Shown: positions 6,180-48,214 of the stretch, in pieces
Position numbering within the stretch: the stretch's first letter is position 1
Layout: each line of letters starts with the position of its first letter
Virus record (IMG/VR): IMGVR_UViG_3300009130_000013
Span: 29,196 to 93,195 of that record
DNA: 64,000 bases
Strand: one strand, 5' to 3'
Origin: a virus
Program-made: the position numbers and the translations under genes
The notes under the pieces: model-generated
What the model saw: only the letters and a program-made list of their open reading frames with translations
Databases searched by the model: none
Told to the model about the DNA's origin: nothing

Positions 6180-6208
6180 TTGACAGATTGGCCAAAAGGT
6201 GGTATAAT
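6180..6208 (+). promoter_or_regulatory. sigma70-type early promoter (copy 2 of repeated module)
   Basis: Consensus TTGACA-N17-TATAAT. Confidence 0.9.
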
Positions 6209-7074: not shown

Positions 7075-7256
7075 ATACAAAATATTCAACAACACCTAGC
7101 ACAGAAGACAGATTGCTTAATGTTAAAGTTTGGAAAAATATGAATAAAGACAACGCCTGGGTACAATTTATTAGTAAGATTTGGATCAGACGTTTAGCAA
7201 GAGACCTTTCATTAGAAAAGGTTGGGTTAACTCATCACGATGGGTTATATAAATGA
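7071..7256 (+). CDS. hypothetical protein
   Basis: ATGA coupling, SD AGGA. Confidence 0.6.
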   Translation: MNTKYSTTPSTEDRLLNVKVWKNMNKDNAWVQFISKIWIRRLARDLSLEKVGLTHHDGLYK

Positions 7257-7300
7257 ATTTGTTTGGGTACGCCAAACATTTAACTGAGGAAGGAGACAAA

Positions 7301-7768
7301 ATGAAGAAACTATATAAACAATTAGCAACAATACTTTTTATTATGGGTATGGTAATTTCTATGCCAACGTTTGCTTATAGTGAAGGGTTTATAAGACAAG
7401 GAAAGGTTATTGATCATTATAAGATGGTTATTGATCGTGTACCTTACCAAGTTGAAGTATGCCAAAAAGTAACAGGTCAACCTGGTGCTTCATCGGCTGA
7501 TGTCATAGTTGGTGCTATAATTGGTGGTGCTGTAGGTAACCAAATTGGTAAAGGCAAAGGTAACGATGCCGCAACTATTTTGGGTGCTATTTTAGGTGCC
7601 GATATTGCCAATAAAAGTAAACCAGGTACTACAGGTTCAACTCAATGTTTTTTAGAAACTCGTTATAATGAAACTGAAAGAAACATATACAGCCATTCTG
7701 TATTACACTTTGAATATGCTGGACGTATGTATTCTGTTTCGTTTGTAAGAGACGGCGTTAACAACTAG
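7301..7768 (+). CDS. glycine-zipper 2TM exported protein
   Basis: SD AGGAG favours ATG 7301; GAIIGGAVGNQIGKGKGNDAATILGAILGA. Confidence 0.85.
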   Translation: MKKLYKQLATILFIMGMVISMPTFAYSEGFIRQGKVIDHYKMVIDRVPYQVEVCQKVTGQPGASSADVIVGAIIGGAVGNQIGKGKGNDAATILGAILGADIANKSKPGTTGSTQCFLETRYNETERNIYSHSVLHFEYAGRMYSVSFVRDGVNN

Positions 7769-7779
7769 TAGATAAAATT

Positions 7780-8271
7780 ATGACAATGAGTTTAGCACGT
7801 GGTCTGACCATGCTGAATACAAAAAAGCGAAAACGTAAGACTATTACGGAAAAGCAAAGATTAAAGTATAAGGCAGATCTTAAAGCACATAACAAACGTT
7901 TGAGACAACTACATCTACATAATTCTCAAATGAACCTTGATGATTATATTGATTATGTTCAAGGTTATTATCAGCCACGTAACACATTTCAAGTCCGTAA
8001 AACAATTACCGGGCCTATTTCCACTTCACCTAGGAGTGTAGTGTCAACGGTTAGCACGGCGGTCTCCAAAACCGCAAGTGGGGGTTCGAATCCCTCCGCT
8101 TCTGCCAACCATTCTTGGCGTAACAATTCTAACGGTGGTACTAAAGATTGGAAGGAGCAACAAGAACGTATTGAGATTAGTAAACAATATGCTATTGTTC
8201 CAGCTTATAACAAAGGCCCGTACATGGTCGTATCAAAAGAGGATTTAAAGACGGCCGGGAAGAAGGTCTGA
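7780..8271 (+). CDS. conserved phage protein containing an in-frame tRNA
   Basis: Basic N-terminus and C-terminal PAYNKGPY motif; uninterrupted frame through the tRNA. Confidence 0.7.
   Translation: MTMSLARGLTMLNTKKRKRKTITEKQRLKYKADLKAHNKRLRQLHLHNSQMNLDDYIDYVQGYYQPRNTFQVRKTITGPISTSPRSVVSTVSTAVSKTASGGSNPSASANHSWRNNSNGGTKDWKEQQERIEISKQYAIVPAYNKGPYMVVSKEDLKTAGKKV
8032..8107 (+). tRNA. trnW: tRNA-Trp (anticodon CCA), encoded 3' CCA
   Basis: Acceptor AGGAGTG/CGCTTCT, D stem GTGT/GCAC, anticodon stem GCGGT/ACCGC with loop CTCCAAA, T arm GGGGG-TTCGAAT-CCCTC, G73, CCA; 76 nt. Confidence 0.95.
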
Positions 8272-8475
8272 TTGTCCGACTCAAAAGATTCACATATATT
8301 TAAAAATGACAGCGGTAGAAAGATTGTAAGAATTCCTGTAAAGGAATTTGTTTGTATAGGTGAAACGCCACCTATGGATCATCCACACGTTTTTTTAACT
8401 ATGGGCAATAAAGATTTTATGTATTGTCCTTATTGTAGTACGAGGTATGAATATGGCGGGAATGATGAAACGTAA
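8272..8475 (+). CDS. zinc-finger (zf-CHCC) domain protein
   Basis: C-x8-HPHVFL...CPYC, as in alphaproteobacterial NDUFS6-like proteins. Confidence 0.85.
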   Translation: MSDSKDSHIFKNDSGRKIVRIPVKEFVCIGETPPMDHPHVFLTMGNKDFMYCPYCSTRYEYGGNDET

Positions 8476-9115
8476 ATTTAAAAAATGGACATATATAATC
8501 TTAGGATTTATATTTGGATTAATATTAACATTTGTTGTAGGAACATTTTACCCTAACTTTTATGTTGTATCAAAATTACAACAACAATTTGATGATAAGA
8601 TTCAATCTGTTTGGGAAGACTTTGGTATAATAGAACCTGCTATAGAATATTCAAACAATAACGAATTTGTTTTATCTGTTAGTAAATGTATTCAATGGAT
8701 AAATTTAGGCGTTAAAACACACGAAAGAATAGATAGAGAAATTATCATAGCAATGGCTGTTCTTGAAACAGGATACGGAAAGAGTAGATTTGCTAACGAA
8801 GGTAATAACTTATTTGGTATTAGAACTTGGGATGATGAAATACCACAACTAAAACCATTAGGAAATCCTGACGTTGTTTGGGGTGTAAGAGTATACAAAA
8901 CCAAGTGCCAATCAGTTCAAGATATGATAAGTACTATTAACAGACATCCAGCCTATGAACTGTTTAGAATTGAAAGAGCAAAACAGTTAGAAACAAATTC
9001 TATTAACATTAATAAACAAATCGATCTTCTAAACAAATGGAGCACCAACCCTGACTACACAAAACTAATTAAGCAAAAGGTTATAAAGATTAAAAAAATA
9101 TTAGAGAATGGGTGA
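8462..9115 (+). CDS. membrane-anchored glucosaminidase (GH73/Bax-like)
   Basis: TM anchor; AVLETGYGKSRFANEGNNLFGI; WSTNPDY. Confidence 0.85.
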   Translation: MMKRKFKKWTYIILGFIFGLILTFVVGTFYPNFYVVSKLQQQFDDKIQSVWEDFGIIEPAIEYSNNNEFVLSVSKCIQWINLGVKTHERIDREIIIAMAVLETGYGKSRFANEGNNLFGIRTWDDEIPQLKPLGNPDVVWGVRVYKTKCQSVQDMISTINRHPAYELFRIERAKQLETNSININKQIDLLNKWSTNPDYTKLIKQKVIKIKKILENG

Positions 9116-11218: not shown

Positions 11219-11226
11219 TATAAATA
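11219..11226 (+). promoter_or_regulatory. T4-type late promoter
   Basis: Exact TATAAATA upstream of structural genes. Confidence 0.75.
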
Positions 11227-38693: not shown

Positions 38694-38923
38694 GAACATA
38701 CAAATGGATTGAAGGAATAGTTAGACCAGTAAAAGGCGTTAAAGAAGAATACAAAGATATAAACGAAGAAACTGAAGACAGAAGTTTTAAAAAAGCATTA
38801 AAGTCATTTCAGAATAAAGTTAAAGAATGTCGCTGGTTAAGAGTACAATATAAAAGTAAAAAAGGTAAAGACCTAGATCGTTGGGTTGAAATACCATTAG
38901 GACGTAAGAAGAGAATTGGATAA
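38690..38923 (+). CDS. hypothetical protein
   Basis: Coupled ORF. Confidence 0.65.
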   Translation: MRTYKWIEGIVRPVKGVKEEYKDINEETEDRSFKKALKSFQNKVKECRWLRVQYKSKKGKDLDRWVEIPLGRKKRIG

Positions 38924-41243
38924 AATGATAAAACACAACCCGGAAATGGATTTAATCTTAAGCAAGGCTTATGACTTTGCTCATAAACTTAATCACAAAT
39001 ATGTAACTATCGAACACTTGATGTTGAGTTTAGTTAACTATAAAAATTTTAAAATTATGCTTGAAGAATTTGGTTGCGACCAAGAAAATCTTGCTTTAGA
39101 AATTAAACATCACGTTGAAACATTACCCATAGCATCTAAATCGCCAGTTGAACCTCAAAAGACACACGGCTTAGATAGAGTATGTAATAGAGCATTTACT
39201 CAAGTACTATTCAGTGGTAGACAACATTTACAAACTATAGACTTGTTTCATAGCATAATGACTGAACAAAGAAGCTATGCTTTTTATTTGTTCGCAAAAT
39301 ACAATGTTGACAAAGATGAACTAACAAAATTCTTTAATAAAACATATACCGGTGATGATGAAAAAGCATTACATCAACAAATGGCACAAGAAACACTAGG
39401 CGAGTATTGTACAAATTTAAACGATCAAGCTAAAGTAGGAAAGATAGATCCTGTTATAGGCAGAGAAAACGAAATTGAAGAAATGTGCCAAGTACTAGCA
39501 AAGCGAAATAAATCAAATGTATTACTAATAGGTGAGCCAGGTGTAGGTAAAACAGCACTTGCTGAAGGACTTGCTATGAGAATTTTAGATGGCGATGTTC
39601 CTGATTACCTAAAGAACTCTCGTGTTTACAACTTAGACATGGGTAGTTTAATAGCTGGTACAAAGTACAGAGGAGAATTTGAAGAACGATTAAAAGAAAT
39701 TATTTCCGCGGCAAAAATATTGCCAGGATCAATACTTTTCATTGATGAAGCACATCAAATGAGAGGTGCCGGCGCCGGGGGAAACAGTGGACCAGATTTT
39801 ATGCAAATGCTCAAACCAGCATTGGCTAAAGGAGATGTGAAAGTAATCGCATCTACTACTTGGGAAGATTATACGTCTAGTTTTGAAAAAGACAGGGCGT
39901 TTATGAGAAGATTTTATAGACTAACAGTTGAAGAGCCCACACCAGAGGTAGCGAAAGATATACTTACTGGTCTTAACAAATATTTTATGGAATTTCATAA
40001 AGCGAAAATATTTCCAGAGGCTATTGAAGCCGCTGTTGACCTTAGCGTCAGGCACCAACCAGATAAAAAGTTGCCTGACAAGGCAATTGATTTAATAGAT
40101 AGTGCCTGTGCTAGACAACGTTTCCTAAAACAAACTAACTATAAGATTCGTAAGTCTAACATTATAGAAGAACTATCTAAAGCAACTAGAATACCATTAG
40201 AACAATTAAACTCAGAAGCTACAAAGAGCTTGGCTGATATAGACGGTCATATTAAAACAAAACTATTCGGTCAAGACCACGTTATAGATACTGTGGTTAA
40301 TAAAATTATGGTATCTAAAGCAGGACTTAAGAGTATTCATAAACCAATTGGTGTATTTTTACTATTAGGTCCAACTGGTTCTGGTAAAACAGAGTTTGCT
40401 AAACTACTTGCTGAAAACAGTCAAGCAAAACTATTAAGATTTGATATGAGTGAATATCAAGAGAAGCATACAGTCGCAAGACTAATTGGTGCTCCTCCAG
40501 GTTATGTAGGTTATGAAGACGGTAATCTAGGAGGTGGACTATTAATTAGTCAAATTGAAAAGAATCCACACGCCATTGTATTGTTTGACGAGATAGAAAA
40601 AGCACACCCTGATGTTAGTAACGTTTTACTACAACTAATGGACGAAGGCTTTATTACTAGTACAAATGGTAAAAAAGCAGATGCTAGAAATACAGTTATC
40701 TTAATGACATCTAACTTAGGTGCCAAAGACAATGAAATGAATAATATAGGATTTAGTCAAGAACTAGAAAAGTCGGGTGAAGAAGATAAAGCAATGAAAA
40801 ACTTCTTTAAACCTGAATTTAGAAATAGACTAGATGGAGTATGTAAGTTTAAACATTTATCAAATGACGTAGTAAGAAAAATTGTTGGTAAGTTTAAAAA
40901 TGAAATAAATGACTTACTAGCAGAAAAAGGTATTAAGATAGAATTTATGGAAAAAGCTGTAGCCCAATTAGCCAAACTTGGCTATGATAAGAAAATGGGT
41001 GCTAGACCACTTGGTCGAGTTATTGAAGATAAAATTAAAATACCTCTATCTAAAAAGATATTATTTGAGAGTATTAAAGAAGGTTCTTTAATATTAATTG
41101 ATTATACGAAAAAAGAATTTAGTATAACAGTTAACCCTAACGAGGCTAATGCTGATGGCGAATTACAAGATACCAAATCTAAAACCGGAGTCGATAAATC
41201 AGGTCTTATTGTACTGGACCAATTTAAACCAGAACCTAAATAG
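38916..41243 (+). CDS. clpA: ClpA ATP-dependent unfoldase
   Basis: N domain, GEPGVGKT and GPTGSGKT Walker A, IGF loop. Confidence 0.93.
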   Translation: MDKMIKHNPEMDLILSKAYDFAHKLNHKYVTIEHLMLSLVNYKNFKIMLEEFGCDQENLALEIKHHVETLPIASKSPVEPQKTHGLDRVCNRAFTQVLFSGRQHLQTIDLFHSIMTEQRSYAFYLFAKYNVDKDELTKFFNKTYTGDDEKALHQQMAQETLGEYCTNLNDQAKVGKIDPVIGRENEIEEMCQVLAKRNKSNVLLIGEPGVGKTALAEGLAMRILDGDVPDYLKNSRVYNLDMGSLIAGTKYRGEFEERLKEIISAAKILPGSILFIDEAHQMRGAGAGGNSGPDFMQMLKPALAKGDVKVIASTTWEDYTSSFEKDRAFMRRFYRLTVEEPTPEVAKDILTGLNKYFMEFHKAKIFPEAIEAAVDLSVRHQPDKKLPDKAIDLIDSACARQRFLKQTNYKIRKSNIIEELSKATRIPLEQLNSEATKSLADIDGHIKTKLFGQDHVIDTVVNKIMVSKAGLKSIHKPIGVFLLLGPTGSGKTEFAKLLAENSQAKLLRFDMSEYQEKHTVARLIGAPPGYVGYEDGNLGGGLLISQIEKNPHAIVLFDEIEKAHPDVSNVLLQLMDEGFITSTNGKKADARNTVILMTSNLGAKDNEMNNIGFSQELEKSGEEDKAMKNFFKPEFRNRLDGVCKFKHLSNDVVRKIVGKFKNEINDLLAEKGIKIEFMEKAVAQLAKLGYDKKMGARPLGRVIEDKIKIPLSKKILFESIKEGSLILIDYTKKEFSITVNPNEANADGELQDTKSKTGVDKSGLIVLDQFKPEPK

Positions 41244-45796: not shown

Positions 45797-48214
45797 ATGA
45801 ACATCGGAGAAGTAGACAATCCAAAACCCGTAGTATATGTAGACATGGACGGCGTCTTGGCAGACTTCTTCTCTGAATGGGCTAAAATGGCAGGAGTAAA
45901 GTCAGGCAGTTATAGAGATATACCCCCAGCAAACGTTGACCCTACACTTAACAAAATGATTGGCACAGACTTCTTTGCTAAATTACCAAAATTTCCTACA
46001 ACTGATAAACTAATCCAATTAGTTATTAATCGCTTTGGCTCGTATAAAATATTAAGCTCGCCATTAAGAAACGATCATGCTAACAGCAAAAAACATAAAA
46101 TAGATTGGGTTGGAAGAAAGTTAAAAATTAAACCTACTGAAACTATTATTGTAGCAAACAAAACAGGTTATGCTAAACAACCAGACGGCACCCCTAATAT
46201 ACTAATCGACGACAGGGGACTTAACATTGAACGCTGGAACCAAGCAGGCGGATACGGTATTAAGTATCAAGCAGATGAGGACTCGTTAGAAAAAGTAGTA
46301 AAAGGATTAGATGACTACCAACAAAAGTTAGGTGAGCGTGGAGTAATGAGTATTGGTGGCATACAATATGGTGGCTTTAGACGACCATTAAAAATTAAAA
46401 AATCTACACCGGGCAAATTACACTACAGCAAACCTAAAGGTAAAAAGATTAAAATGGGTGCTGATGGTAACTTGAGTTATAAAAAGTTTGTAAGAAAAGT
46501 ATACGAAGTAACAGCAGATGAACTAAAACAAATAGAAACGTATGCTGATAGACTATTTGCTAAAGTAGGTATAGATGTAAGATTTACAAAACATTTTTTA
46601 GATAGAGTTAACGATACTAGAAATGAAAAAGAAATAACACCTGCTGAACTTACACGTTTATTCAAACAAGAATTTAAAAAATGGGGAAGACCTATTGCCC
46701 AAATGGGGCCTGATGCTGAAGCTGTAATGAAAGATATGAGAACAGATGTTAATGTACCTTTTGCTTTGGTATGGGACAAGAACAACAACGAATTAGATTT
46801 GGTTGCTAAAACAGTAATGAAAAAGCCAGACTTTAAAACATCTAACAGAGAATTTACTATTGAAAACGAAGAGATAGATTCTACAGCATTTAATGAAATT
46901 ATAACACCAGCACTAGAACGTTTAGACAAAGCATTTAAAAAAGATAACTTTGAAATAAGAATAGTTGGCGGTGCTGTTAGAGATATTGCTTTAGGTAAAA
47001 CACCTAAAGATATTGACTTGGCAACTGATGCCACACCTGATGAAATGATTGAACTGTTTGATAAAAATAATATTAGACATAAACCTACAGGACTAGAACA
47101 CGGCACAGTTACAGCAATAATAGACAGTGAACCATTTGAAATTACAACACTACGGGCAGACGTTAGTACTGACGGTAGACACGCTGATGTAGAGTTTATT
47201 CGTAACTGGAAAGAAGATGCTCAACGTAGAGACTTAACGTACAATGCTATGAGCTTAGACTTTGATGGTAACTTATACGATTACTTTAATGGTATGGACG
47301 ACTTACAAGATAAAGTTAGTAACTTTGTAGGTGACCCAGAAGAACGTATTAAAGAAGACTATCTAAGAATATTAAGATACTTTAGATTTCAGAGTAAATT
47401 AGATAGTCCTAAATGGGATAAAGATACACTAGTTGCTATAAAAGATAATGCTAAAGGATTGCCACAAATTTCTGTAGAAAGAATATGGCAAGAAATGGGT
47501 AAACTTCTTGTAGGAAATAGTGTAATTCAATCTTTAGCATATATGTCAGCAACTAACGTAGATCGAGCAATAGGATTAGATACTAGTAACATACAAAAAC
47601 TAAAAGATTTAAAAGGTAATACAGATCCTATTATGGCTCTAGCATTATTAGTAGACAGTCTTGCTATTGCTAATCAATGGAAATTAAGTAACGCTGAAGA
47701 ACAAGACTTAAAATTTTATCTTAGTTACAGAGATAAAAAATTAAACAAAGAACAAGCAGAACATTTAGTAATTGATGGTACGGATAAATTAAAAGTTAGT
47801 AACTTATTAAAACTACAAAAACAAGATAAGTTAGCTAGTTACATAGAACAATTTCAAATGCCAGAGTTTCCTATAACAGGAAATGATCTTATACAACGTG
47901 GTATGAAGCCTGGTCCCGATTTAGGCAATACATTAAACAAATTAAAAGATTTGTGGAAGAAAAGTAACTATGATTTATCAGCAGATGAATTGCTTGGTGC
48001 TGTTAGTTTTGAATCTACAGAAGAAGCTAAACGTATGAATGATATGTTAGGTATTACAGAAGGTGTTGGAATCATAACAGCATACAATACAACAAAAGAT
48101 GTTAAGCCAGGTGAAACAGCTCGGCAAGCCAACAAGCTCGGCTTACAAGTAAAAGGCGAAGGCAAAGTCGCTTTTTTAAGAAGGAGTTGGGAAAATGAGA
48201 AACAAATCAAATGA
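45797..48214 (+). CDS. cca: fusion: HAD 5'(3')-nucleotidase + unknown domain + class II CCA-adding enzyme
   Basis: DMDGVLADF...LIDD; GGAVRD, DIDLAT, EITTLR, RRDLTYNA, EDYLRILRYFRF. Confidence 0.88.
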   Translation: MNIGEVDNPKPVVYVDMDGVLADFFSEWAKMAGVKSGSYRDIPPANVDPTLNKMIGTDFFAKLPKFPTTDKLIQLVINRFGSYKILSSPLRNDHANSKKHKIDWVGRKLKIKPTETIIVANKTGYAKQPDGTPNILIDDRGLNIERWNQAGGYGIKYQADEDSLEKVVKGLDDYQQKLGERGVMSIGGIQYGGFRRPLKIKKSTPGKLHYSKPKGKKIKMGADGNLSYKKFVRKVYEVTADELKQIETYADRLFAKVGIDVRFTKHFLDRVNDTRNEKEITPAELTRLFKQEFKKWGRPIAQMGPDAEAVMKDMRTDVNVPFALVWDKNNNELDLVAKTVMKKPDFKTSNREFTIENEEIDSTAFNEIITPALERLDKAFKKDNFEIRIVGGAVRDIALGKTPKDIDLATDATPDEMIELFDKNNIRHKPTGLEHGTVTAIIDSEPFEITTLRADVSTDGRHADVEFIRNWKEDAQRRDLTYNAMSLDFDGNLYDYFNGMDDLQDKVSNFVGDPEERIKEDYLRILRYFRFQSKLDSPKWDKDTLVAIKDNAKGLPQISVERIWQEMGKLLVGNSVIQSLAYMSATNVDRAIGLDTSNIQKLKDLKGNTDPIMALALLVDSLAIANQWKLSNAEEQDLKFYLSYRDKKLNKEQAEHLVIDGTDKLKVSNLLKLQKQDKLASYIEQFQMPEFPITGNDLIQRGMKPGPDLGNTLNKLKDLWKKSNYDLSADELLGAVSFESTEEAKRMNDMLGITEGVGIITAYNTTKDVKPGETARQANKLGLQVKGEGKVAFLRRSWENEKQIK

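What the first reader, a model, noticed from the sequence alone, without database searches (positions are those of the whole stretch)
7780..8271. Complete tRNA-Trp nested in frame inside a protein-coding gene (dual-coding mRNA/tRNA)
Seen: a canonical 76-nt tRNA-Trp (8032-8107; anticodon CCA 8066-8068; bacterial Trp identity elements A1-U72 and G73; encoded CCA) starts exactly at codon 85 and is read without a stop as the linker RSVVSTVSTAVSKTASGGSNPSASA. The downstream part (…PAYNKGPYMVV…) looks like genuine conserved coding sequence and has no ATG or SD of its own, so it can only be made by translating through the tRNA. Both Trp codons of the protein lie downstream of the tRNA, the first a few codons after it. 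Inference: tRNA excision by RNase P and 3' nucleases and translation of the full protein are mutually exclusive. The locus could be a switch coupling protein and downstream operon output to tRNA processing, or a sensor/decoy for host tRNA-cleaving defences.
Basis: partly seen in the sequence, partly recalled or inferred. Interest (0 to 1): 0.88.

Follow-up and report, generated by a model that had tools for sequence, protein, structure and literature searches.

The report
tRNA gene nested inside phage gene
A working-looking tryptophan tRNA gene sits in frame inside the floppy middle of a small conserved marine-phage protein gene, and related phages keep Trp, Ala, Thr, Asp, Glu or Pro tRNAs at the same spot with the frame always open, so selection keeps one stretch of DNA as both tRNA and protein code.

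Summary
A tRNA-Trp(CCA) at 8032-8107 lies in frame inside ORF 7780-8271.

It is not a chance ORF.
- The ORF belongs to a family of about 500 small phage proteins. In all of them the N- and C-terminal parts form one ORF joined by a variable, predicted-disordered linker.
- Most members have no tRNA. 17 distinct related genes carry tRNA-Trp in that linker, always with an unbroken frame.
- The frame stays open across different flank lengths, different tRNA lengths (75 and 76 nt) and different codon phases.
- The tRNA keeps its cloverleaf by compensatory changes.
- The coding part downstream of the tRNA is under purifying selection (dN/dS about 0.2).

The pattern extends further. Wider relatives carry Ala, Thr, Asp, Glu, Glu+Ala, Pro or a 74-nt Trp tRNA at the same spot. 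A second, unrelated phage gene family also carries tRNA-Trp in frame, with near-isogenic tRNA+ and tRNA- alleles.

Best reading: one transcript is either translated through the tRNA or processed to release it, and the linker acts as a swappable docking site for tRNAs. This is inferred; no expression data could be obtained.

The only published precedent found is selC nested in selB (Mukai 2021). This scan has reported the same phenomenon before on other DNA (e1-5337812 and e1-5337828 for the same family, and four other notes).

The parts
7780..8271 (+). Host gene: 163-aa ORF of an unnamed small phage protein family (basic N-terminus, helical hairpin, variable linker, conserved C-terminal PAYNKGPYMVV domain)
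   Evidence: ORF listing. 498 homologues, all a single ORF. AF2 model: residues 24-61 have pLDDT above 90, the linker at about 70-120 is below 50, and a small alpha/beta C-domain spans 124-157. No Pfam, PHROG, PDB or Atlas assignment.
7780..8031 (+). N-terminal coding part (codons 1-84) up to the tRNA
   Evidence: Aligns with the N-terminal part of tRNA-less homologues. dN/dS median 0.22 among tRNA-bearing genes.
8032..8107 (+). tRNA-Trp(CCA), 76 nt with encoded CCA. Also read as codons 85-109 plus the first base of codon 110 (peptide RSVVSTVSTAVSKTASGGSNPSASA).
   Evidence: ARAGORN. Infernal 56.9 bits. Among 14 nested copies, 98.6% of cells are paired and 9 of 21 pairs show compensatory change, with 0 of 500 shuffles as high. 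GC is 58% against 34% for the window, and about half of the 25 codons are rare in this phage.
8066..8068 (+). Anticodon CCA
   Evidence: ARAGORN places the anticodon at tRNA position 35; sequence.
8108..8271 (+). C-terminal coding part (rest of codon 110 to the stop), including the conserved WKEQQER...PAYNKGPYMVV...TAGKKV domain
   Evidence: This is the most conserved part of the family. dN/dS median 0.19 among tRNA-bearing genes. It is in frame only if the 76 tRNA bases are translated, because 76 is not a multiple of 3.
6180..6208 (+). Likely promoter of the transcription unit: TTGACA, 17-nt spacer, TATAAT with an upstream TG (12 of 12 matches). Tightly packed + strand ORFs follow from 6243 to at least 10358, with no terminator-like site between.
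   Evidence: Consensus scan and ORF packing. Use of this promoter is inferred, not shown.
8272..8475 (+). Next ORF (67 aa, zf-CHCC zinc finger). It starts on the base after the host gene's stop codon, so it may be translationally coupled to read-through of the tRNA.
   Evidence: ORF listing. Pfam PF10276, E = 3.5e-13. Coupling is inferred.

Best explanation
A functional tRNA-Trp gene is nested, on the same strand and in frame, in the disordered linker of a conserved small phage protein.

The gene lies in a tightly packed early-type operon. I infer that each transcript copy of this segment has one of two fates. (a) A ribosome that starts at 7780 reads straight through the 76 tRNA bases. This gives the full 163-aa protein with a tolerated 25-aa Ser/Thr/Val-rich insert and delivers ribosomes to the abutting next gene. 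(b) The tRNA folds and is cut out by host RNase P and 3' processing enzymes. This yields tRNA-Trp and destroys that copy of the mRNA.

The linker of this protein family is a recurrent docking site for tRNA genes. Phages exchange these as cassettes by recombination in the conserved coding flanks. Only insertions in a stop-free frame and the right phase survive, which is why the frame is always open.

Shown here: selection on the tRNA structure, selection on both protein halves, unbroken frames, recurrence, and cassette exchange.
Inferred: that both products are made from one transcript, and how the two fates are balanced.
For: 1. One gene. 498 homologues of about 140-150 aa have the N and C parts in one ORF with a variable linker, and most have no tRNA. 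The cultured Pelagibacter phages Mosig and HTVC008M have tRNA-less versions.

2. Unbiased search for the tRNA itself in metagenomes. Most copies of this tRNA-Trp type sit in ordinary tRNA clusters. Every copy that lies upstream of the family's C-domain is inside an unbroken ORF. That gives 17 distinct genes.

3. Frame is maintained through change.
- The distance from the N-terminal anchor to the tRNA takes the values 33, 45, 48, 60, 69, 72 and 87 nt.
- The distance from the tRNA to the C-terminal anchor takes the values 83, 86, 95, 98 and 104 nt.
- In the 75-nt tRNA variant the upstream frame is shifted by one base and rejoins after the shorter D-loop.

4. The tRNA is under structural selection. 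98.6% of cells are paired and 9 of 21 pairs change on both sides. It is the only tRNA-Trp in the 93-kb record.

5. The protein is under selection on both sides of the tRNA. dN/dS is 0.22 for the N part and 0.19 for the C part. Only 25 short-fragment clusters exist, none showing a systematic split at the tRNA.

6. The tRNA peptide falls in a predicted disordered linker.

7. Recurrence.
- tRNA-bearing genes are scattered over the protein tree, needing 8 changes, at least 3 of them forced by well-supported branches.
- They carry three different tRNA-Trp lineages.
- Recombinant genes are visible, for example P0033/L176.
- In 81 distinct ORFs of wider relatives, 45 hold Ala, Thr, Asp, Glu, Glu+Ala, Pro or a 74-nt Trp tRNA in frame. 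None has a tRNA beside the ORF rather than inside it.

8. A second, unrelated secreted-protein family holds tRNA-Trp in frame in 3 of 71 genes. The tRNA+ and tRNA- alleles are about 98-100% identical outside a cassette of about 110 nt.
Against: - There is no direct evidence that the mature tRNA or the full-length protein is made.
- About half of the 25 tRNA-encoded codons are rare in this phage and the segment is GC-rich and structured, so read-through may be inefficient.
- The minimum-free-energy fold of the tRNA in its mRNA context does not give the full cloverleaf and is not unusually stable, z = -1.5. This is a weak point, because such folds often miss tRNAs.
- An internal start after the tRNA cannot be strictly excluded.
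- Frame maintenance could partly serve ribosome delivery to downstream genes rather than the protein itself.
- Why this particular family is a hot spot is unexplained, and the function of the host protein is unknown.
Confidence: 0.7

Rival explanations
1. Regulatory switch or sensor. The nesting has been selected so that tRNA processing tunes the amounts of the host protein and downstream genes, or senses tRNA-Trp supply or host tRNA-cleaving defences.
For: On one RNA molecule the two fates exclude each other (logic; the same model is proposed for selB/selC in PMC8124441). The arrangement is retained in many lineages. The next gene starts right after the stop codon.
Against: The conserved Trp codon W124 is also present in tRNA-less homologues, and W113 is not conserved. 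The same site holds six tRNA species. Presence or absence is polymorphic even between near-isogenic phages, which suggests the nesting is dispensable. No defence or counter-defence gene was recognised beside it.
Confidence: 0.12
2. The frame is kept open mainly for ribosome traffic. Translating through the tRNA preserves translational coupling and avoids polarity in a tightly packed operon. The tRNA-encoded peptide, and perhaps the host protein in tRNA-bearing phages, matter little.
For: ORFs in this operon abut or overlap. The host gene's stop is directly followed by the next start (8271/8272). Mukai noted the same stop/start overlap for selB.
Against: The C-domain downstream of the tRNA is under clear protein-level purifying selection in tRNA-bearing genes, dN/dS 0.19. 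This would not be expected if only ribosome passage mattered. This reading complements the best explanation more than it excludes it.
Confidence: 0.1
3. Dead tRNA. The tRNA sequence is a relic exapted as linker coding sequence, and no tRNA is made.
For: It lies in a protein linker. Mukai 2021 described tRNA remnants inside selB.
Against: Infernal scores are 52-72 bits for the nested tRNAs. Compensatory changes keep all four stems. The tRNA is far more conserved (mean column identity 93%) than the linker beside it. Identity elements are intact. The peptide it encodes varies freely wherever the tRNA structure allows.
Confidence: 0.03
4. Chance or artefact. Two separate genes, or a pseudogene, flank an intergenic tRNA that happens to lack stops in one frame.
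For: 75% of phage tRNA contexts have some frame open across the tRNA.
Against: Homologues are single ORFs. 17 distinct tRNA-Trp genes and 45 genes with other tRNAs all have unbroken frames despite varied flank lengths and phases. dN/dS is about 0.2 on both sides. Only 1 of 320 non-Trp tRNA contexts in the control set had 40 or more open codons on both sides.
Confidence: 0.02

Closest known systems
selC (tRNA-Sec) nested inside the selB ORF of Alphaproteobacteria (Mukai 2021, Int J Mol Sci 22:4605, PMC8124441; read)
   Same: A whole tRNA gene lies on the same strand inside a protein ORF and is read as codons. The trait is conserved across relatives yet lost in some. The stop codon abuts or overlaps the next start. 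The proposed model is the same: tRNA processing and full-length translation are alternatives. That evidence is also bioinformatic only.
   Different: In selB the tRNA forms a non-conserved C-terminal extension, and the host protein is the tRNA's own elongation factor in cellular genomes. Here the tRNA lies between two conserved domains of a phage protein of unknown function. Several tRNA species (even two in tandem) occupy the site in relatives. tRNA lengths are mostly not multiples of three. The unit is exchanged as a cassette. A second unrelated gene family shows the same arrangement.
tRNA-Lys(TTT) of mycobacteriophage Fionnbharth overlapping gene 37 (PMC10865867)
   Same: A phage tRNA gene overlaps a protein-coding gene and changes the protein: gp37 is extended by 18 aa compared with a tRNA-less relative.
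   Different: It is on the opposite strand and at the 3' end of the gene. It is not nested and not read as sense codons from the same transcript.
Phage T4 tRNA gene region with interspersed ORFs and the SegB homing endonuclease (PMC2330249; title and abstract seen. The processing by RNase P is from my own knowledge.)
   Same: Phage tRNAs are co-transcribed with ORFs and cut out of long transcripts. The tRNA region is passed preferentially between co-infecting related phages.
   Different: In T4 the tRNAs lie between ORFs, not inside one. No homing endonuclease was recognised beside the gene here.
tmRNA and dual-function small RNAs such as SgrS/SgrT (own knowledge)
   Same: One RNA carries both a structured RNA function and a coding function.
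   Different: In those cases the coding and RNA parts are separate segments of one functional molecule. Here the same nucleotides serve both roles, and the two products come from alternative fates. ARAGORN reports no tmRNA in the window.

Membership tests
Bacterial-type elongator tRNA-Trp | Cloverleaf with 7/4/5/5-bp stems that scores above the tRNA model threshold | tested here: met
   ARAGORN. Infernal RF00005 56.9 bits against a gathering score of 29.
Bacterial-type elongator tRNA-Trp | Anticodon CCA, with the bacterial TrpRS identity set G73 and A1-U72 (the identity set is from my own knowledge of E. coli tRNA-Trp) | tested here: met
   The sequence at 8032-8107 shows A1, U72, G73 and CCA at 8066-8068. 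Some relatives have G1-U72.
Bacterial-type elongator tRNA-Trp | Stems kept by compensatory change among relatives | tested here: met
   98.6% of cells paired, 9 of 21 pairs changed on both sides, 0 of 500 shuffles as high, and slid controls at 42-54% paired.
Bacterial-type elongator tRNA-Trp | Mature, aminoacylated tRNA is produced | not testable with these tools
   No expression data were available.
tRNA nested in an ORF (selB-selC type, Mukai 2021) | Entire tRNA inside an ORF on the same strand, read without a stop | tested here: met
tRNA nested in an ORF (selB-selC type, Mukai 2021) | Nesting conserved across diverged relatives | tested here: met
   17 distinct tRNA-Trp genes, and 45 of 81 wider relatives with other tRNAs.
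tRNA nested in an ORF (selB-selC type, Mukai 2021) | tRNA forms a C-terminal extension of the host protein | tested here: not met
   Here 54 codons, including the family's most conserved domain, follow the tRNA.
tRNA nested in an ORF (selB-selC type, Mukai 2021) | Host protein is a functional partner of the nested tRNA | tested here: inconclusive
   The host protein has no recognisable family or fold match. The N-terminus is strongly basic, which is only a hint.
Unnamed small phage protein family with C-terminal PAYNKGPYMVV domain | Full-length similarity of both the N and C parts to the family | tested here: met
   498 hits, the best at E = 2.5e-97, many covering 100% of the query. Alignment.
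Phage tRNA cluster (T4-type tRNA region) | tRNA stands in an array of tRNAs separated by short spacers | tested here: not met
   It is the only tRNA in the 64-kb window. The record's five-tRNA cluster lies about 30 kb away, outside the window. Out-of-gene relatives of this tRNA do sit in clusters.
Programmed translational bypass (T4 gene 60 type) | Stop codon after a take-off codon, and a coding gap that ribosomes skip | tested here: not met
   There is no stop in or next to the tRNA. The frame is continuous only if all 76 bases are read.
tmRNA | tRNA-like domain plus a tag-peptide ORF | tested here: not met
   ARAGORN searches for tmRNA and reports none.

The most novel reading that the evidence does not exclude
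This protein family is a dedicated tRNA-carrier gene. Its linker is an evolved docking site that lets phages swap tRNA cassettes by recombination. Its strongly basic protein acts in cis on the tRNA it is translated across, for example by co-translationally binding, chaperoning or protecting the tRNA, or by setting the balance between processing and read-through. The nesting would then be a functional partnership rather than a tolerated insertion.
Probability: 0.15. Interest if true: 0.9.

Novelty: new variant of a known kind. Interest (0 to 1): 0.78.

Why it matters
The same nucleotides are kept by selection both as a folded tRNA and as sense codons between two conserved protein domains, and this recurs for at least six tRNA species and in two unrelated gene families.

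- It is a clear natural case of RNA/protein dual coding.
- It gives a tractable system for asking how translation and tRNA folding or processing compete on one transcript.
- It reveals a cassette route by which marine phages gain and lose tRNAs.
- It has a practical consequence for annotation. Pipelines that forbid coding sequences from overlapping tRNAs will split or delete these genes, while gene callers that ignore tRNAs will hide the tRNA, so the arrangement is probably under-reported.

In the literature I could search, only the selB/selC prediction (Mukai 2021) describes a nested tRNA in a prokaryotic ORF, and nothing describes it for phages.

Tried and rejected
- Function of the host protein. 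All of these gave nothing usable: Pfam, PHROGs (only phrog_4593 of unknown function at E = 0.008), a PDB profile search, Foldseek against viral structures on a low-pTM model, the ESM Atlas, and Pfam on family 2 and on distant members.
I fetched DNA of database proteins through the search for related loci instead.
- Folding the tRNA in its mRNA context. The minimum-free-energy structure keeps the anticodon arm but not the whole cloverleaf (z = -1.5). This is uninformative.
- tRNA relics in the linkers of tRNA-less genes. A permissive Infernal search of ten loci found none. The apparent PxVRET / SVVST resemblance in the protein alignment is therefore not evidence of a decayed tRNA.
- Excision and religation of the tRNA like an intron. 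Rejected, because 74, 76 and 77 nt are not multiples of three, so the frame needs the tRNA bases.
- Split forms of the gene. A search for shorter proteins found 25 clusters. They are mostly C-terminal fragments of tRNA-less types or look cut by contig ends, and show no pattern of a split at the tRNA.
- Near-isogenic tRNA+ and tRNA- pairs in family 1. None were found in the DNA at hand. They were found only in family 2.
- Other deeply nested tRNAs in the fetched loci. Only one borderline tRNA-Cys turned up, at L148:995-1072 with 46 and 40 open codons. I did not pursue it.
- T4-type late promoter TATAAATA. There is only one in the window, at 11219, and it is not near the gene.

Full report
**Observation**

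ARAGORN reports one tRNA in the window: tRNA-Trp at 8032-8107 (+), anticodon CCA at 8066-8068. Infernal gives 56.9 bits against the tRNA model, whose gathering score is 29. The sequence shows A1-U72, G73 and an encoded CCA.

ORF 7780-8271 (163 aa) runs through the tRNA. tRNA base 1 is the first base of codon 85.

The window is part of a 93-kb IMG/VR virus record. It belongs to a large marine myophage with a family-B DNA polymerase. Its closest cultured relatives are the Pelagibacter phages HTVC008M and Mosig. The record's other tRNAs are Arg(UCU), Cys, Glu, Phe, Ser, Gln and Arg(GCG). They lie elsewhere, five of them in a cluster, so the nested tRNA is its only tRNA-Trp.

**Is it chance?**

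An open frame across 76 bases is common. Only 19 have 40 or more open codons on both sides. Eighteen of those are the nested tRNA-Trp genes described here, and one is a borderline tRNA-Cys.

The decisive evidence is comparative.
- The ORF has 498 database homologues of about 140-150 aa.
- In all of them a basic N-terminus with a helical hairpin and a highly conserved C-terminal domain (WKEQQER...PAYNKGPYMVV...TAGKKV) are joined in one ORF by a variable linker.
- Most have no tRNA, including Mosig_00174 and HTVC008M AGE60505.
- 18 of the top 120 protein clusters carry the tRNA-encoded peptide in the linker.

**Unbiased DNA test**

I scanned metagenome contigs for the tRNA itself, using its D-arm and anticodon-arm sequence and ignoring any gene. 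Most of the roughly 100 copies stand in ordinary phage tRNA clusters. Every copy that lies upstream of the family's C-domain is inside an unbroken ORF that starts at the family's MTM start.

This gives 17 distinct tRNA-bearing genes.
- The distance from the conserved YIDY motif to the tRNA takes the values 45, 48, 60, 69, 72 and 87 nt. It is 33 nt from another anchor in a distant member.
- The distance from the tRNA to AYNKG takes the values 83, 86, 95, 98 and 104 nt. All keep the frame.
- In the L012 type the tRNA is 75 nt because of a shorter D-loop. There the upstream frame is shifted by one base and rejoins the usual frame after the D-loop.
- Because 76 is not a multiple of three, the C-domain is in frame only if the tRNA bases are translated. 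Cutting the tRNA out and rejoining the ends would shift the frame.

A search for shorter proteins found only 25 fragment clusters, with no pattern of a split at the tRNA.

**Both layers are under selection**

tRNA layer: among 14 nested copies, 98.6% of stem cells pair. Nine of 21 pairs change on both sides. None of 500 shuffles, and none of the slid controls, comes close.

Protein layer: among tRNA-bearing genes the median dN/dS is 0.22 upstream of the tRNA and 0.19 downstream. Synonymous sites are near saturation between clades. The downstream part has no conserved start of its own.

The AF2 model puts the tRNA-encoded residues 85-109 in a linker with pLDDT below 50. This linker lies between a confident helical hairpin (24-61) and a small alpha/beta C-domain. 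The tRNA segment is 58% GC in a 34% GC genome, and about half of its codons are rare. Its sequence is therefore set by the tRNA, not by codon adaptation.

**History**

On a protein tree built without the linker, tRNA-bearing genes form several patches among tRNA-less ones. The tree needs 8 changes, at least 3 of them forced by well-supported branches. All patches lie in the MTM half of the family.

Recombinants are visible. P0033/L176 has the N-terminus of a tRNA-less lineage and the linker plus C-terminus of a tRNA-bearing one. P0040 and P0063 share the N-terminus but have wholly different linkers.

The nested tRNAs belong to three tRNA-Trp lineages. The 75-nt type nests among out-of-gene cluster tRNAs with good support. 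No tRNA relic is detectable in tRNA-less linkers.

**The site hosts other tRNAs**

A profile search of protein representatives gave members with tRNA-like peptides. I fetched their relatives from IMG/VR.

In 81 distinct ORFs of the wider family, 45 hold at least one whole tRNA in frame:

| tRNA | Length (nt) | Codon phase | Distinct ORFs |
|---|---|---|---|
| Ala(UGC) | 76 | 1 | 16 |
| Thr(UGU) | 76 | 1 | 7 |
| Asp(GUC) | 76 | 1 | 2 |
| Glu(UUC) | 77 | 3 | 5 |
| Pro(UGG) | 77 | 1 | 1 |
| Trp(CCA) | 74 | 3 | 18 |

Four of the five Glu tRNAs stand in tandem with an Ala tRNA in the same ORF. No ORF has a same-strand tRNA beside it rather than inside it. Infernal confirms the nested tRNAs at 52-72 bits.

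**A second host family**

One out-of-family copy of the same tRNA-Trp clade, at L178:881-956 (-), lies in frame in the variable linker of an unrelated secreted protein of 209 aa.
- That family has tRNA-less homologues.
- 3 of 71 IMG/VR genes hold a tRNA-Trp at the same linker position.
- L199 (tRNA+) and L244 (tRNA-) are virtually identical for more than 600 nt on both sides and differ only in a cassette of about 110 nt. L197 and L205 are a similar pair. All four alleles are intact ORFs.
- So gain or loss is recent and happens by replacement of the linker segment.

**Mechanism (inferred)**

A perfect sigma-70-type promoter at 6180-6208 precedes a run of abutting + strand ORFs from 6243 to at least 10358, with no terminator-like site.

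I propose that each transcript copy is either translated through the tRNA or processed.
- Translation through gives the full protein and delivers ribosomes to the zf-CHCC gene, which starts on the base after the stop codon.
- Processing by RNase P and 3' enzymes yields tRNA-Trp plus a non-stop 5' fragment.

Ribosome passage would unfold the tRNA, so the two fates compete kinetically. The disordered linker tolerates the insert. Conserved coding flanks provide homology for cassette exchange between co-infecting phages. Only stop-free, in-phase insertions survive.

The Trp-codon link fails. W124 is conserved in tRNA-less members, W113 is not conserved, and other tRNA species use the site. Nothing supports a defence sensor or decoy. 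A regulatory role cannot be excluded, but the near-isogenic presence/absence polymorphism argues that the nesting is dispensable.

**Known precedents**

Phrase searches for nested tRNAs return only Mukai 2021 (PMC8124441). That paper predicts selC inside a C-terminal extension of selB in Alphaproteobacteria. It calls this the first nested tRNA in a bacterial ORF and proposes the same either/or model.

Fionnbharth's tRNA-Lys overlaps gene 37 on the opposite strand (PMC10865867). The pelagimyophage survey PMC7029224 does not mention nesting.

This scan has reported the same phenomenon before on other DNA: e1-5337812 and e1-5337828 for the same family, and e1-5379051, e1-5827392, e1-5903734 and e1-5903750.

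**Verdict**

This is a real, selected dual-coding arrangement. I class it as a new variant of the nested-tRNA kind, and it is much broader than the one published case. The function of the host proteins is unknown, and so is the reason why these families are hot spots.

Noticed in passing
L178:684-1313 (-), L197:693-1346, L199:570-1235; tRNA-less partners L205:2992-3636 and L244:2983-3627: A second, unrelated phage gene family also carries tRNA-Trp in frame in its variable linker. It encodes a secreted protein of about 210 aa with a VFPYVEDTRKCIM motif. The tRNA+ and tRNA- alleles are nearly identical outside a cassette of about 110 nt.
   Followed up: yes
L278:1738-1898, L279:1244-1404, L281:318-478, L292:2431-2588: Two tRNAs in tandem, Glu(UUC) then Ala(UGC), both lie in frame inside one small ORF of the wider AYNKG family.
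   Followed up: partly
window 45797-48214 (+): An 805-aa protein with an N-terminal 5'-nucleotidase-like (NT5C) region and a PolyA_pol head domain plus its RNA-binding domain. This is a phage-encoded CCA-adding enzyme or poly(A) polymerase relative, possibly relevant to phage tRNA upkeep.
   Followed up: no
window 6180-6208 (+): A perfect sigma-70 consensus promoter (TTGACA, 17 nt, TATAAT, with TG) stands in front of the run of small abutting ORFs that includes the host gene.
   Followed up: partly
window 8272-8475 (+): A 67-aa zf-CHCC zinc-finger ORF starts (TTG) on the base after the host gene's stop codon. It overlaps the following glucosaminidase-domain gene (8447-9115).
   Followed up: no
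window 38916-41243 (+): A phage-encoded ClpB/Hsp104-like double AAA+ protein of 775 aa.
   Followed up: no
window 7253-7768 (+): The gene just upstream of the host gene encodes a 171-aa protein with an N-terminal hydrophobic segment and a glycine-zipper 2TM domain (PF05433).
   Followed up: no
L148:995-1072: A tRNA-Cys(GCA) with 46 and 40 open codons on its two sides. It is the only non-Trp tRNA in the control set that is deeply inside an open frame, and it may be chance.
   Followed up: no
L169:2975-3049 and L118: An out-of-gene 75-nt tRNA-Trp lies at the 5' end of a 370-aa stop-to-stop frame. The real start is probably downstream of the tRNA. This is an example of how gene callers may extend ORFs over tRNAs.
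   Followed up: no
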